DNA of 14,327 nt from Conexivisphaerales archaeon (GTDB lineage Archaea > Thermoproteota > Nitrososphaeria > Conexivisphaerales > DTJL01). This document shows, one piece after another, positions 3,092 to 7,005 of this stretch. The number at the start of each line of letters is the position of its first letter. Positions within the stretch are counted from its first letter, which is position 1. The stretch spans positions 1 through 14,327 of the forward strand of contig JBEKZX010000051.1 in NCBI GenBank assembly GCA_049509455.1, written 5' to 3'. The notes under the pieces were generated by a model. That model was not told the origin of the DNA and searched no databases. It saw only the letters and a list, made by a program, of their open reading frames with translations. The translations under genes and the position numbers were made by a program.

Positions 3092-3118
3092 TCACCTCCG
3101 TCTGATCATGCTCTCCAC

Positions 3119-3134
3119 GAACCGTTTATTAGCC
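3119..3134 (+). promoter_or_regulatory. BRE/TATA-like promoter of the dehydrogenase/hydratase-thiolase operon (probably leaderless)
   Basis: GAACCG-TTTATTA-GCC, with the TATA-like part 24-30 nt upstream of GTG 3155. Confidence 0.55.
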
Positions 3135-3154
3135 GTGAGCCAGCAGGCTTTGAC

Positions 3155-5152
3155 GTGTCCAGCCTAGAAATTAAGAAGGTGGCCGTCGTCGGGGCCGGCG
3201 AAATGGGCCATGGCATCGCCCAGCTGCTGGCCCAGAACGGTCTCGAGGTCCGCCTCTTGGACAAGTACCCGGAAGCGCTGCAGAAGGCCAAGGGCAGGAT
3301 AGAGGCCGACCTCAAGAGGCTTGTCGAACGGCAGAAGGTCAGCGATCAGGAGGCCAAGACCGTCATGGCGAGGATAGCGTTCACTGGCGATCTGTCGGCA
3401 GCCGTGAGGGAAGCCGACCTGGTAATTGAAGCCGTCCCGGAGCTTCTTGATCTGAAGAAGTCCATCTTCAGGGAGGTGGATTCAGCGGCGCCTTCAGCCG
3501 CCATCTTGGCATCAAACACTTCAAACATCAGGATATCTGAGTTGGCCGCCGCGACTTCGCGACCAGACAAGGTCGTGGGTCTCCACTTCTTCAACCCGCC
3601 CACCAGGATGAAGCTGGTCGAGGTCATCCCCAGCTCCCTGACCGATCCGAGGGTCGTCGAGGCCGTTTCCTCACTCTGCATCAAGCTGGGGAGGACGCCC
3701 GTGAAAGTGGCCAAGGACGTCCCAGGTTTCATCGTCAACAGGATAAACGCCGCCGACATACTGCTCTTCGGCCTGATCCTCGACAAGGGGATGGCCGCGC
3801 CTGAAGAAGTGGACTCTTACGCTAAAGCGCAGGGGCTGCCGATGGGGCCATACGAGCTCCTCGACTTCGTGGGCATCGACGTCGCCAACGACTCCCTTGA
3901 GTACTTCGCCGCGGCGCTCTCGCCAGAATACGGCAAGACGCAGGTCTTCAAGCGGATGGTGAAGGAGAAGAAACTGGGGAGGAAGACCGGCAGCGGCTTC
4001 TATGACTGGGCTTCAGGCAAGGCCGACATCCCCAAGGCCGAGCCGACCGACAAGCTCTCCATGATGGACCTCTTCTCCGTCGAAATCAACGAAGCGGTCA
4101 AGCTCATAGAGGAAGGAGTCGCCACCCCCGACGACATCGACAAGTCCGTCATGCTGGGCATGAACAGGCCGTTCGGCCCCATATCTGTCGCCAAGAGCTT
4201 CACCAACGCCGAAATCAGGTCGAAGCTGGAGGAGATGGCGACCAGATTCGACTGCCCGCTCTTCGCTCCCGCCAAGTCGATACTGGAGGGTAAGCTGCGC
4301 GAAGCAATAGAAGGAAGGCTCCAGGCGGAGCACGCGCCGCAGGCGACGGCGGCTCCGTCCGGGCTTGCGGCGAAGGTCAGCCTCCCCATTTACGTGGAGA
4401 GGCTAGGCGGAAGGGTGGCACGAATAGTGATTAACAGGCCCAAGCACAACACCCTGAACGCCGAAGTCCTGGACGGCCTTGACAAGATACTGGACGAGCT
4501 CTGGGACGACAAAGAGGTCACCGTCGTCCTCGTGACGGGGCAGGGACCCACGTTCTCGGCGGGCGCCGACCTCTCACAATTCTTCGCCACATCCCTGGAC
4601 TTTATGGATTTCGCCGCGAGGGGGGCGAGGCTTTTCAAGCGACTGACGGATTTCCCGAAACTGACCATAGCTGTCATGAAGGGATCTGCCTTGGGCGGCG
4701 GCCTGGAGCTTGCCCTCTCATGCGACCTGAGGATAGGCACCGAGGACGTAAAGATGGGATTCACGGAGGTCACCCTGGGCATTGTCCCGGGTTGGTCCGG
4801 AACCCAGAGGCTCACCAAACTAATCGGCTTATCCAGGGCTTCCCAGCTCATACTCACCGGGAACAAGATCTCTGGAAAGGAGGCCCTAGGACTGGGGATT
4901 CTCTTCACGCTGGCACCCCCGGGTGACCCCGACGCCTATGCTGAACAGGTGGCTTCGGAACTGGCTTCGAAGGTCGCCCCAGTCGCCTTGGCGTTGGCCA
5001 AGAAGCTGATCAACAGGGGAGGCGAGGTCCCGTCCGATGTCGGGCTTGAGATGGAGGCTATGGCGATGGGCATCCTCTTCGGCACGGATGACCTAAAGGA
5101 AGGCATCTCCGCCTTCTTCCAGAAGCGGAAACCGGAGTTCAAGGGCAAGTGA
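3155..5152 (+). CDS. 3-hydroxyacyl-CoA dehydrogenase / enoyl-CoA hydratase fusion (archaeal order: dehydrogenase N-terminal, crotonase C-terminal)
   Basis: Rossmann VVGAGEMGHGIA, IEAVPE, SNTS, catalytic HFFNP, GFIVNR, LGRKTGSGFY. Crotonase part has FSAGADL, GGGLEL (Glu1) and FTEVTLGIVPGWSGTQRL (Glu2). Confidence 0.95.
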   Translation: MSSLEIKKVAVVGAGEMGHGIAQLLAQNGLEVRLLDKYPEALQKAKGRIEADLKRLVERQKVSDQEAKTVMARIAFTGDLSAAVREADLVIEAVPELLDLKKSIFREVDSAAPSAAILASNTSNIRISELAAATSRPDKVVGLHFFNPPTRMKLVEVIPSSLTDPRVVEAVSSLCIKLGRTPVKVAKDVPGFIVNRINAADILLFGLILDKGMAAPEEVDSYAKAQGLPMGPYELLDFVGIDVANDSLEYFAAALSPEYGKTQVFKRMVKEKKLGRKTGSGFYDWASGKADIPKAEPTDKLSMMDLFSVEINEAVKLIEEGVATPDDIDKSVMLGMNRPFGPISVAKSFTNAEIRSKLEEMATRFDCPLFAPAKSILEGKLREAIEGRLQAEHAPQATAAPSGLAAKVSLPIYVERLGGRVARIVINRPKHNTLNAEVLDGLDKILDELWDDKEVTVVLVTGQGPTFSAGADLSQFFATSLDFMDFAARGARLFKRLTDFPKLTIAVMKGSALGGGLELALSCDLRIGTEDVKMGFTEVTLGIVPGWSGTQRLTKLIGLSRASQLILTGNKISGKEALGLGILFTLAPPGDPDAYAEQVASELASKVAPVALALAKKLINRGGEVPSDVGLEMEAMAMGILFGTDDLKEGISAFFQKRKPEFKGK

Positions 5153-6342
5153 TTGGATTGGAGGACGCTTACGTCGTCGACTTTCAAAGGACGCCCTTCT
5201 CCAAGTCCAAGCCCTCCGAGCCCGAGAAGGACGCCTTCAACTCCGTCAGGATGGACCAGGGACTCGCACTTCTGATCGGCAGGGTTGTGCTGAGGACGGG
5301 GGTCCAAGGTCATGAGATCGGCGACGTGATCACCGGCTGCGCCCTCCAGGTCGACGAGAATTGGCTCTACGGTGGAAGGCACCCGATCCTCCTCGCCGGC
5401 CTCCCCGTCTCCGTCCCAGGGATGGCGCTGGACAGGGCGTGCGCCTCCTCGATGAACGCCATCTCCACCGGTTCGTTCGAGATCATGACGGGTCATTCGG
5501 ATGTCGTCCTCGCAGGGGGAATGGAACACATGACTCATGTCCCCATGTCCAACAACCCGCACATGGCGGTCAATTCGAGGCTCATACTGAGGCCCGAATA
5601 CATGAAGTATCAGATGAACGTCGGCTACGTAATGGGCCTGACCGCAGAGAAGCTGGCAAGCGAAAGCGGCATTAAGAGAGAGACGATGGACGCATTCTCG
5701 GTCGAATCGCACAGGCGGGCGGCCGCATCCCTCGAAGCGGGCTGGTTCAAAGACGAGCTAATGCCGATGAAGGTCGAGTCAGGAGGGAAGGAGATCATGG
5801 TGGAGGAGGACCTCAGCATCAGGAAGGATCCCTCATTGGAGCAGCTTTCGAAGCTGCCTTCTGTCTTCAAGGACGGAGGGACGATCACCGCAGGCAACTC
5901 GTCCACCCTCAGCGCAGGAGCCTCCTTGGTCGCCCTGATGTCCGGAGCCAAGGTCAAGGAACATGGAGCCTCACCACTGGCCAAGATTGTCTCGTTCGGC
6001 TGGGCCGGCGTGGAGCCCAGCCTGATGGGCAAGGGACCGGTGCCTGCCAGCCTCAAGGCCCTCGCGAAGGCTGGAGTGAAACCTGAGGAGGTCGACCTGT
6101 GGGAGATCAACGAAGCCTTCGCCGTAGTCGTCCTTTACGCCATGAAAGAGCTGGGCATCGACCATCAGAGGTTGAACATCCACGGCGGCGCCATCGCCCT
6201 GGGTCACCCGCTCGGCGCCACGGGGGCCCGGCTCGTGGGTACTCTGGCCAGGCAGCTTCACGTCAGCGGCAAGAGGTACGGAGTCGCCGCGCTCTGCGTC
6301 GGCGGAGGACAGGGCTTCGCTACGGTCCTAGAACGGGCTTGA
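5149..6342 (+). CDS. Acetyl-CoA C-acyltransferase (thiolase)
   Basis: Catalytic Cys in RACASS, NEAFA, GGAIALGHPLGATG (His), ALCVGGGQG (second Cys). Start overlaps the upstream stop (GTGA). Confidence 0.95.
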   Translation: MIGLEDAYVVDFQRTPFSKSKPSEPEKDAFNSVRMDQGLALLIGRVVLRTGVQGHEIGDVITGCALQVDENWLYGGRHPILLAGLPVSVPGMALDRACASSMNAISTGSFEIMTGHSDVVLAGGMEHMTHVPMSNNPHMAVNSRLILRPEYMKYQMNVGYVMGLTAEKLASESGIKRETMDAFSVESHRRAAASLEAGWFKDELMPMKVESGGKEIMVEEDLSIRKDPSLEQLSKLPSVFKDGGTITAGNSSTLSAGASLVALMSGAKVKEHGASPLAKIVSFGWAGVEPSLMGKGPVPASLKALAKAGVKPEEVDLWEINEAFAVVVLYAMKELGIDHQRLNIHGGAIALGHPLGATGARLVGTLARQLHVSGKRYGVAALCVGGGQGFATVLERA

Positions 6343-6360
6343 CCTTTCGACTGCCATAGA

Positions 6361-6720
6361 ATGGATCTAAAGGCCTCGTTCTACTCGGCCCTCCTGATGG
6401 CGAGCGAGATAGGGGACGTCAACAGGTTCCAGGATTCGTCCTCCCTTGTCTGATACGCCGGCCTCGCTCCTTCCATCCATTCATCTGGAGGGACGACGTA
6501 TCACGGCGGGATAACGAAGCAGGGGAGCCCCTACCTGAGGTGGATACTGAACCAGTGCGTCAGGGTCCACATGAGGGCGGAGCCGGACGGGTCCGTGGCA
6601 TCGTTCTATACCAGGCTGGCTAGGAAGAAGGGGAACTCCAAGGCCGTGGTGGCCGCCTCCGCGAAGCTCCTGAAGGTGGCCTGCTGGGTCCTCAGGGAGA
6701 GGAGGGAATATCACAGTTAG
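6361..6720 (+). pseudogene. IS110-family transposase, C-terminal (Transposase_20-type) fragment with in-frame stop; RuvC-like DEDD domain missing
   Basis: Reads MDLKASFYSALLMASEIGDVNRFQDSSSLV*YAGLAPSIHSSGGTTYHGGITKQGSPYLRWILNQCVRVHM...FYTRLARKKGNSKAVVAASAKLLKVACWVLRERREYHS*. This contains the EIGD..RF, YAGLxP...SG, G.ITKxG..YLR and KAxVA..KLL motifs. TGA at 6451-6453. The resemblance starts at about 6379. Confidence 0.9.
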
Positions 6721-6881
6721 GGGGCACGGCCGCATCCATCTTTGTGAGGAGGGCGTGCCTCGGTAACATAAACGCGGTGTGCCCCTTGACAAGGTGCCGG
6801 AGGTACGATAGTGGGGGAGAGCCCCGAATGGGTAATTGCCATACCTCTGTCGCCGCGTTCAAATGTCGCCCACATGGGTAA
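6376..6881 (+). mobile_element. 5'-truncated IS110/IS1111-type insertion sequence remnant, right end predicted at the AA core 6880-6881
   Basis: Transposase fragment followed by a structured 3' non-coding region. The right end is inferred from RNA-loop matches to 6874-6886. The left boundary is approximate. Confidence 0.65.
6719..6854 (+). ncRNA. Putative bridge/seek RNA (two stem-internal loop-hairpin modules) in the IS right end
   Basis: Module 1: outer stem 6719-6733/6774-6787, 12x12-nt internal loop (ATCCATCTTTGT / GGTAACATAAAC), inner stem GAGG/CCTC. Module 2: outer stem 6793-6805/6842-6854, internal loop (CGATAGTG / GAATGGGTAATTGCCA), inner stem GGGG/CCCC. Confidence 0.65.
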
Positions 6882-6918
6882 AGATGATTAACCACGAGGG
6901 TTTAGGCTCTGCCTTGAA

Positions 6919-7005
6919 GCCGGGGTACCCTAGCCTGGTAGGGGGCAGGCCTGCTAAGTCTGTGGGCGCAAGCCCTCGTGGGTTCGAATCCCACCCCCGG
7001 CGCCA
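6919..7005 (+). tRNA. tRNA-Ser(GCT), intron-less, CCA encoded
   Basis: Acceptor GCCGGGG/CCCCGGC, D-arm CCC/GGG, anticodon stem CAGGC/GTCTG with loop CT-GCT-AA (anticodon 6953-6955), long variable arm GGGC-GCAA-GCCC, T-arm GTGGG-TTCGAAT-CCCAC, discriminator G. Confidence 0.97.

What the first reader, a model, noticed from the sequence alone, without database searches (positions are those of the whole stretch)
6874..6886. RNA loops match both halves of a junction and overlap on a 2-nt core, predicting the IS end and target
Loop 1 5' strand CATCTTT (6737-6743) is the reverse complement of AAAGATG (6880-6886). Loop 2 3' strand ATGGGTAA (6828-6835) is identical to 6874-6881. The two matches overlap on exactly AA (6880-6881). 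An IS110 junction should be half donor and half target around a short core, so loop 1 would be target-binding, loop 2 donor-binding, and the element would end at ...CACATGGGT[AA]. Positional analogy makes the other target guide TAACATAA (6764-6771), predicting an empty site near TAACAT-AA-AGATG. Caveat: the 5' strand of loop 2 lacks the TT expected if it also covered the core.
Basis: partly seen in the sequence, partly recalled or inferred. Interest (0 to 1): 0.85.

Follow-up and report, generated by a model that had tools for sequence, protein, structure and literature searches.

The report
Guide RNA of a dead archaeal IS

Summary
All string matches are real. Shuffles of the non-coding region reproduce the arrangement in 0.045% of trials.

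Window 6376-6878 is the 3' part of an IS110-family element of the IS1111 type. It holds the last 114 codons of the transposase, with an in-frame TGA, then a 158-nt non-coding region with two stem/internal-loop/hairpin modules.

In 80 related metagenome loci, loop 1 tracks each copy's flanks (0 of 10,000 permutations reach the observed score). The 3' strand of loop 2 tracks the right end plus core.

The predicted empty site TAACATAAAGATG is found exactly:
- upstream of tRNA-Ser in a same-genus genome;
- as the two flanks of an intact copy at the orthologous site;
- in copies of a ~170-nt intergenic repeat in the same genome.

Correction: the core is TA (6879-6880), not AA. The element ends ...CACATGGG at 6878.

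The mechanism is published (Siddiquee 2024, Durrant 2024). This scan has already reported archaeal IS1111-type examples on other DNA. Verdict: a new member of a known kind, of modest interest.

The parts
6343..6375 (+). Remnant of the sequence downstream of the thiolase gene, abutting the truncation point of the IS
   Evidence: The thiolase ORF ends at 6342. Same-genus genomes align up to about 6348 by BLAST and loosely to about 6378 by eye, then continue into DNA that matches contig C86 of this genome.
6376..6720 (+). C-terminal 114 codons plus stop of an IS110-family transposase; a pseudogene fragment that lacks the DEDD domain
   Evidence: Pfam PF02371 at E 8.6e-19, with no PF01548. It is 93% identical to residues 211-324 of the 324-aa protein P0001.
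6451..6453 (+). In-frame TGA stop inside the transposase fragment
   Evidence: Translation. The family consensus has A at this position, and the close copy L008 has S.
6718..6842 (+). Bridge/seek RNA core: two consecutive stem / internal-loop / hairpin modules
   Evidence: RNAalifold on 37 sequences gives 28 pairs, 13 with compensatory changes. Stems: 6718-6724/6782-6788, 6730-6734/6773-6777, hairpin 6745-6749/6758-6762, 6794-6799/6837-6842, hairpin 6812-6826.
6735..6744 (+). 5' strand of loop 1: right-target guide. CAUCUUUG pairs with top-strand TAAAGATG (6879-6886), with G.T at the core T
   Evidence: In the family, the reverse complement of this strand matches core plus right flank (mean 8.0 own versus 5.8 cross; 0 of 10,000 permutations reach it).
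6763..6772 (+). 3' strand of loop 1: left-target guide. TAACA-TA-AA is identical to the top strand of the empty site, so it pairs with the bottom strand
   Evidence: Left flank of L011 and the G003 empty site. In the family, mean 8.1 own versus 5.3 cross; 0 of 10,000 permutations reach it.
6800..6811 (+). 5' strand of loop 2: guide for the left end. G-UACGA-U pairs with G-TCGTA-T just inside the left end, which is absent from the window
   Evidence: Left end seen at C52:30862 and in L008/L011. CGAT/CGAC tracks ATCG/GTCG in the left end.
6827..6836 (+). 3' strand of loop 2: guide for the right end. ATGGG-TA equals 6874-6880
   Evidence: All five family variants of right end plus core (ATAGG-TA, ATGAG-TA, ATGGA-TA, ATGGA-TG, ATGGG-TA) are mirrored in this strand.
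6858..6864 (+). TATA-box-like motif in the right end. It reads TTCAAAT here and TTTAAAT in L008, L011 and the C61 relic. It may act as an outward or circle-junction promoter (inferred)
   Evidence: (G)CTTAAAT or CTTATAT sits at a fixed 21 nt from the right end in the closest subfamily. It resembles host tRNA promoters of the gcTTTAAA type.
6868..6875 (+). Right subterminal inverted repeat GCCCACAT. Its partner ATGTGGGC is in the left end
   Evidence: The left end reads TA-GTCGT-ATGTGGGC.
6876..6878 (+). 3-nt terminal extension GGG; last bases of the element
   Evidence: Family ends. The IS1111 rule of 7 bp on the left and 3 bp on the right comes from PMC11187229.
6879..6880 (+). Core (crossover) dinucleotide TA, shared by element and target
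   Evidence: The same dinucleotide flanks both ends in the family; where it changes to TG it does so on both sides. Homology to the G003 empty site begins at 6879.
6881..6893 (+). Right half of the target, AAGATGATTAACC. It is also the presumed BRE/TATA promoter of tRNA-Ser
   Evidence: The empty sites keep the identical sequence. Other genera have AAAGGTAATTAA at the same distance from the tRNA.
6919..7005 (+). tRNA-Ser(GCT), the gene downstream of the insertion site
   Evidence: ARAGORN and Rfam RF00005 at 55.9 bits.

Best explanation
Window 6376-6878 is the 3' part of an archaeal insertion sequence of the IS110 family, IS1111 type. Its 158-nt region after the transposase stop encodes a bridge (seek) RNA with two internal loops.

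Loop 1 reads the target:
[quoted passage not shown] Loop 2 reads the element's joined ends:
- Its 3' strand matches the right end ATGGG plus the core TA.
- Its 5' strand pairs with GTCGTA just inside the left end.

Recombination occurs at the dinucleotide TA, so the element ends at 6878 and TA 6879-6880 is shared with the target.

The target is ...TTTTCAATAACA-TA-AAGATGA.... This sequence lies in a ~170-nt intergenic repeat of the genus and directly upstream of the tRNA-Ser promoter.

This copy cannot move. It lacks the left end and 210 codons, and it carries a nonsense codon. A near-intact copy of the same element probably exists elsewhere in the genome, at the end of contig C52.

Shown here: the anatomy, the boundaries, the empty sites and the guide/flank covariation. 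Inferred from published bacterial systems: that the RNA is made, binds the recombinase and directs strand exchange.
For: - Strings and chance estimate.
- Transposase fragment matches PF02371; full-length relatives also carry PF01548.
- Conserved two-module fold, with 13 of 28 pairs showing compensatory changes.
- 80 related loci share the layout core + 5 nt + ATGTG...CACATGGG + core, with a 3' non-coding region of at least 128 nt (mostly 158-250) and a 5' leader of mostly 51-57 nt.
- Guides of loop 1 track their own flanks across at least 15 different targets; 0 of 10,000 permutations reach the observed score for either strand.
- The 3' strand of loop 2 mirrors every variant of right end plus core; the 5' strand tracks the left end.
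- Intact copy at the orthologous site (L011) has flanks ...CAATAACA-TA / TA-AAGATGATTAACC + tRNA-Ser.
- Empty orthologous sites: G003 TAACATAAAGATG (exact), G004 CAACATAAAGATG, G001 CAACACAAAGATG. Homology to G003 starts at 6879.
- The order of the strands (top-strand match 5' of bottom-strand match) and the 7-bp/3-bp terminal extensions match what PMC11187229 reports for IS1111 elements.
Against: - There are no expression data and no circle junction for this or any related copy.
- The single-sequence fold is only marginally better than shuffles (z = -1.72).
- In some distant subfamilies the 5' strand of loop 2 matches the left end poorly, for example where the left end reads ACCG or ACAG.
- The regex parsing of the guides failed for about a third of the loci, whose hairpins diverge.
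- Related loci are not independent, although shared targets within subfamilies make the permutation test conservative.
Confidence: 0.9

Rival explanations
1. One reading: the core is AA (6880-6881) and the element ends ...CACATGGGT.
For: In this window the matches of the 5' strand of loop 1 and the 3' strand of loop 2 overlap exactly on AA.
Against: Left junctions of full copies read AACA-TA-GTCG, so no AA is duplicated there. Copies whose right flank starts with G, T or C still have ...GGG-TA. Core variants are TG on both sides in three loci. Empty-site homology starts at 6879. The GGTAA in the 3' strand of loop 2 is conserved whatever the flank.
Confidence: 0.03
2. The 5' truncation is an assembly artefact. 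Contig C88 would be a chimera, and the real genome would carry one intact element between contig C52 and tRNA-Ser, as in L011.
For: C52 ends with the left flank orthologous to L011, plus the left end and codons 1-121. The middle of the gene is missing from the assembly. The genome is a 140-contig metagenome bin.
Against: The C52 part is 99.8% identical to L008, but the C88 part only 94.6%, so they look like different copies. The metagenome contig L008 links C52 through a full element to contig C12, not to tRNA-Ser. The junction between thiolase flank and IS interior shares no repeat long enough to mislead an assembler. The C88 copy also has a nonsense codon.
Confidence: 0.2
3. The matches are coincidental and the region after the stop codon is just a decaying 3' UTR with no guide function.
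For: Each match alone is short. A 7-mer reverse-complement hit occurs in 15% of shuffles.
Against: The combined arrangement occurs in 0.045% of shuffles. Family-wide covariation of both loops with flanks and ends. Compensatory base pairs. The predicted empty site was found.
Confidence: 0.01

Closest known systems
IS1111-family elements with a 3' seekRNA (ISEc11, ISPa11, ISKpn4, ISPst6; Siddiquee et al. 2024, PMC11187229)
   Same: DEDD plus Transposase_20 recombinase. Long non-coding region downstream of the gene and a short left end. Subterminal inverted repeats with a 7-bp left and a 3-bp right extension. The RNA segment complementary to the top strand lies 5' of the one complementary to the bottom strand, and the two matches overlap at the insertion point. 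Insertion is site-specific.
   Different: The host is an archaeon. The inverted repeat is only 8 bp, against the usual 11-13. The core is TA. The window copy is a dead fragment. Nothing here has been tested at the bench.
IS621 bridge RNA (IS110 group; Durrant et al. 2024, PMC11208160; Hiraizumi et al. 2024, PMC11208158)
   Same: Two internal loops, the first for the target and the second for the donor. Each loop has two guide strands that read opposite DNA strands on either side of a 2-nt core, and the core is included in the pairings.
   Different: In IS621 the RNA lies in the left end, upstream of the gene. [quoted passage not shown] Here the RNA is downstream of the gene and the strand order is reversed.
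IS110-family elements that target repeats (ISPpu9 in REP sequences, PMC12288879; IS4321/IS5075 in Tn21 inverted repeats; IS1111-family members in attC sites)
   Same: The target is a position inside a multi-copy intergenic repeat: at least 25 copies in this genome, adjacent to unrelated genes.
   Different: The repeat is an undescribed archaeal element of about 170 nt with no Rfam match. One copy is fused to the tRNA-Ser promoter.

Membership tests
IS110 family (DEDD recombinases) | N-terminal DEDD/RuvC-like domain (PF01548) plus C-terminal Transposase_20 domain (PF02371) | tested here: inconclusive
   The window copy has only PF02371 (E 8.6e-19). The DEDD domain is deleted. The 93%-identical full-length relative P0001 and the C52 fragment have PF01548. 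The element type qualifies; this copy is a fragment.
IS1111 group | Long non-coding region downstream of the transposase gene and a short left end | tested here: met
   158 nt from the stop to the right end in the window. 128-290 nt (mostly 158-250) in the family. The left end to the start codon is mostly 51-57 nt.
IS1111 group | Subterminal inverted repeats with asymmetric terminal extensions (7 bp left, 3 bp right) | tested here: met
   Left end TAGTCGT-ATGTGGGC (C52, L008, L011); right end GCCCACAT-GGG at 6868-6878. The repeat is 8 bp. That is shorter than the 11-13 bp typical in PMC11187229 but within the 7-17 bp given in PMC11208160.
IS1111 group | seekRNA with the top-strand-complementary segment 5' of the bottom-strand-complementary segment, overlapping at the insertion point | tested here: met
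   [quoted passage not shown] 6763-6772 is identical to the top strand of the left half. They overlap on TA(AA).
Bridge/seek RNA-guided recombination | Guides covary with target flanks and with the element's ends across relatives | tested here: met
   0 of 10,000 permutations reach the observed score for either strand of loop 1. All five variants of right end plus core are mirrored in loop 2.
Bridge/seek RNA-guided recombination | Site-specific insertion without duplication beyond the core, shown by empty sites | tested here: met
   Empty site upstream of tRNA-Ser in G003, G004 and G001. The flanks of L011 rebuild it exactly.
Bridge/seek RNA-guided recombination | The RNA is expressed and bound by the recombinase; a circular intermediate with joined ends exists | not testable with these tools
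There are no bench data.
Active (autonomous) insertion sequence | Both ends and an intact recombinase gene | tested here: not met
   The window copy has no left end, lacks codons 1-210 and has an in-frame TGA.

The most novel reading that the evidence does not exclude
The right end carries its own archaeal TATA box: TTTAAAT, 21 nt from the tip, degraded to TTCAAAT in this window. On circle formation this box would drive the transposase gene. It would be an archaeal counterpart of the split -35/-10 junction promoter of bacterial IS110/IS1111 elements. Because the whole box sits in the right end, it would also fire outward in the integrated state, here into the tRNA-Ser promoter region. That could explain why two decayed copies in this genome (C88 and the 49-bp C61 relic) both keep exactly this end. 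The relic's intact guide RNA could also still serve the intact copy in trans.
Probability: 0.2. Interest if true: 0.45.

Novelty: new member of a known kind. Interest (0 to 1): 0.3.

Why it matters
The result gives a fully decoded natural example of an IS1111-type guide RNA in an uncultured archaeon. Records of related transposases are labelled Nitrososphaerota. The example has exact boundaries, a core, a target, empty sites and about 80 naturally re-aimed relatives. This is useful for annotation and as raw material for people who mine bridge recombinases. It does not change what is known about the mechanism. The side observations are small leads rather than discoveries: a 170-nt archaeal repeat that serves as landing pad for two different IS110-family elements, and a TATA-like box at a fixed distance from the right end.

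Tried and rejected
I therefore had no read support for the 6343-6376 junction and no expression data.
- The genome-contig scan with P0001 returned only one distant locus, at 37% identity. It gave no further copies and only a Nitrososphaerota label.
- Rfam found nothing for the target repeat or the relic regions at E up to 1. In the window it found only the tRNA.
- I considered that the repeat was the 5' end of a gene family, because AAAGATG contains ATG. No conserved ORF follows it, and the neighbouring genes are unrelated: CorA, a histidine kinase, a cNMP-binding protein.
- I considered the 15-mer matches at C133 and C2 to be chance (BLAST E 0.92). They turned out to be copies of the target repeat.
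- The sigma-70 promoter and intrinsic-terminator scan is not meaningful for an archaeon and gave nothing useful.
- I looked for a recombinase-type signature at the truncation junction, meaning pseudo-target or pseudo-donor sites. I saw only vague resemblance and dropped it.

Full report
**What is at the coordinates**

The window has a thiolase gene that ends at 6342. About 34 nt later comes an open frame that matches only the C-terminal third of IS110-family transposases: PF02371 at E 8.6e-19, with no DEDD domain. This frame has an in-frame TGA at 6451-6453 and stops at 6718-6720. A non-coding stretch follows, then tRNA-Ser(GCT) at 6919-7005.

Shuffles of the non-coding region reproduce the arrangement in 0.045% of 20,000 trials. 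The arrangement is a direct 8-mer and a reverse-complement 7-mer abutting on the junction.

**Relatives**

The fragment has many full-length relatives of about 324 aa, each with both Pfam domains. One call fetched 80 related metagenome loci.

All of them show the same anatomy:
- A dinucleotide flanks both ends. It is TA, or TG on both sides in three loci.
- The left end is core + 5 nt + ATGTG..., mostly 51-57 nt before the start codon.
- The right end is ...CACAT(G/A)GG + core, 128-290 nt (mostly 158-250) after the stop codon.

This matches the IS1111-group layout described by Siddiquee et al. It includes the 7-bp left and 3-bp right extensions beyond the subterminal inverted repeats. Here those read TAGTCGT-ATGTGGGC ... 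GCCCACAT-GGG.

**The RNA**

An alignment of 37 non-coding regions gives a consensus of two consecutive modules. Each module is a stem, an internal loop and a conserved hairpin (UGAGG...CCUCG). There are 28 pairs, and 13 of them show compensatory changes.

In window coordinates:

| Strand | Coordinates |
|---|---|
| Loop 1, 5' strand | 6735-6744 |
| Loop 1, 3' strand | 6763-6772 |
| Loop 2, 5' strand | 6800-6811 |
| Loop 2, 3' strand | 6827-6836 |

**Guides against flanks**

I parsed the loop strands of the relatives and compared them with each copy's own flanks.

- The 3' strand of loop 1 equals the last 5-6 nt of the left flank, plus the core, plus 1-3 nt.
- The reverse complement of the 5' strand of loop 1 equals the core plus 6-9 nt of the right flank. 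G.U pairs are tolerated.
- Over 32 non-redundant guide sets, own-flank scores are 8.1 and 8.0, against 5.3 and 5.8 for foreign flanks. No permutation out of 10,000 reaches the observed sums.
- The 3' strand of loop 2 mirrors every variant of right end plus core: ATAGG-TA, ATGAG-TA, ATGGA-TA, ATGGA-TG and ATGGG-TA.
- The CGAT/CGAC in the 5' strand of loop 2 tracks ATCG/GTCG in the left end.

The strand order is the one reported for IS1111-type seekRNAs: the top-strand match lies 5' of the bottom-strand match. It is the reverse of IS621.

**The boundary and the core**

Three independent lines place the end of the element at 6878 and the core at 6879-6880 (TA).

1. Two full copies share sequence with the window up to ...CACATGGG-TA. 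They are L008/L010 at a different site and L011 at the orthologous site. Their left junctions read ...AACA-TA-GTCG.
2. Empty tRNA-Ser upstream regions in three same-genus genomes align with the window from 6879 or 6880 onward.
3. The core dinucleotide is the same on both sides throughout the family, also where it is TG.

The trailing A of ATGGGTAA is a conserved loop base, not a flank match.

**The target**

The predicted empty site TAACATAAAGATG occurs as follows:
- exactly upstream of tRNA-Ser in G003;
- as CAACATAAAGATG in G004 and CAACACAAAGATG in G001;
- exactly at C82:5870 of this genome, and with one mismatch at nine further places, eight of them in copies of the repeat.

These sites belong to an intergenic repeat of about 170 nt. 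It has at least 25 copies in this genome and sits next to unrelated genes. It has no Rfam match.

The right half of the target, AAAGATGATTAACC, lies where other genera have AAAGGTAATTAA before tRNA-Ser. It also resembles other tRNA promoters of this genome. It is probably the BRE/TATA of the tRNA (inference). Because the core is kept on both sides, the insertion leaves this promoter intact.

**State of this copy and of the genome**

The window copy lacks the left end and codons 1-210, and it has a nonsense codon. It is dead.

The same genome also holds:
- a 49-bp relic of the right end with the flank TA-AAGATGA at C61:19656-19704;
- the left flank, the left end and codons 1-121 at the end of contig C52.

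The C52 piece is 99.8% identical to the metagenome contig L008. L008 runs through a full element and on into contig C12. The C88 piece is only 94.6% identical to L008.

I read this as one probably intact copy (C52 to C12) plus two relics.

In same-genus genomes the thiolase is followed by DNA that matches contig C86. The fusion of thiolase flank to the IS interior at about 6376 is therefore a lineage-specific rearrangement. It shows no repeat that could mislead an assembler. A chimera is not excluded (about 20%), because reads could not be obtained.

**Comparison with what is known**

The mechanism, the layout and the strand order are those published for IS1111-type seekRNA/bridge RNA elements (PMC11187229, PMC11208160). 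Archaeal IS110-family recombinases are known. This scan has already reported archaeal IS1111-type guide RNAs on other DNA.

The finding is a correct and well-supported decode of a new member, with a one-base correction of the core.

The modest extras are:
- the repeat as a landing pad, which in G003 is also used at a different position (TCTATTGCTG^CTGGAA) by a second IS110-group element with a 5' non-coding region;
- a TATA-like box at a fixed 21 nt from the right end in the closest subfamily. This may be an archaeal version of the junction promoter (inference only).

Noticed in passing
G000 contigs C133:353, 1841, 5235; C51:3548, 4574, 5653, 6359; C82:5857; C69; C62 and others: An intergenic repeat of about 170 nt with at least 25 copies. 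Its consensus reads ..TCAATTAACCTATTGTTTTCAATAACA[CT]AAAGATGA..GCCCATTCGCAGGTCCAAGCC..TTGATGATATTGATTTCTTTTCCAGCAGCAATAGATATCC. It sits next to unrelated genes and has no Rfam match. It is the landing pad of the element studied here.
   Followed up: partly
L004, L006, L007 (G003:C3 and C7): A different IS110-group element (363 aa, non-coding region of about 190 nt upstream of the gene), with three copies. It is inserted in the same repeat family in reverse orientation at TCTATTGCTG^CTGGAA, with an apparent core TG. Two IS110-family elements therefore use two positions of one repeat.
   Followed up: partly
G000:C52:30862-31252 and C12:1-833; L008 (Ga0187857_10004173): A metagenome contig that is 99.3-99.8% identical to both joins the end of C52, through a full-length copy of the element and about 2 kb of unassembled DNA, to the start of C12. 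It scaffolds two contigs of the bin and shows a probably intact copy in this population.
   Followed up: partly
G000:C61:19656-19704 (L002:1501-1549): A 49-bp solo relic: the last 40 nt of the right end (with an intact TTTAAAT), then TA, then AAGATGA. It sits in another variant copy of the repeat. The rest of the element is gone.
   Followed up: partly
window 3116-6348 against G003:C3 (L108) and G000:C86:15744-17415: In G003 the thiolase segment lies between sequences that are only 116 nt apart in contig C86 of this genome. G003 also lacks the 665-aa gene (window 3155-5152). The operon has moved or been lost and regained between close relatives, and one breakpoint is at the IS relic.
   Followed up: no
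G000:C86:24928-25890: A second, distant IS110-family transposase gene in the same genome, 36-39% identical to P0001. I did not examine it for a guide RNA.
   Followed up: no
The Rfam scan of the whole window at gathering thresholds returned only the tRNA.
   Followed up: no
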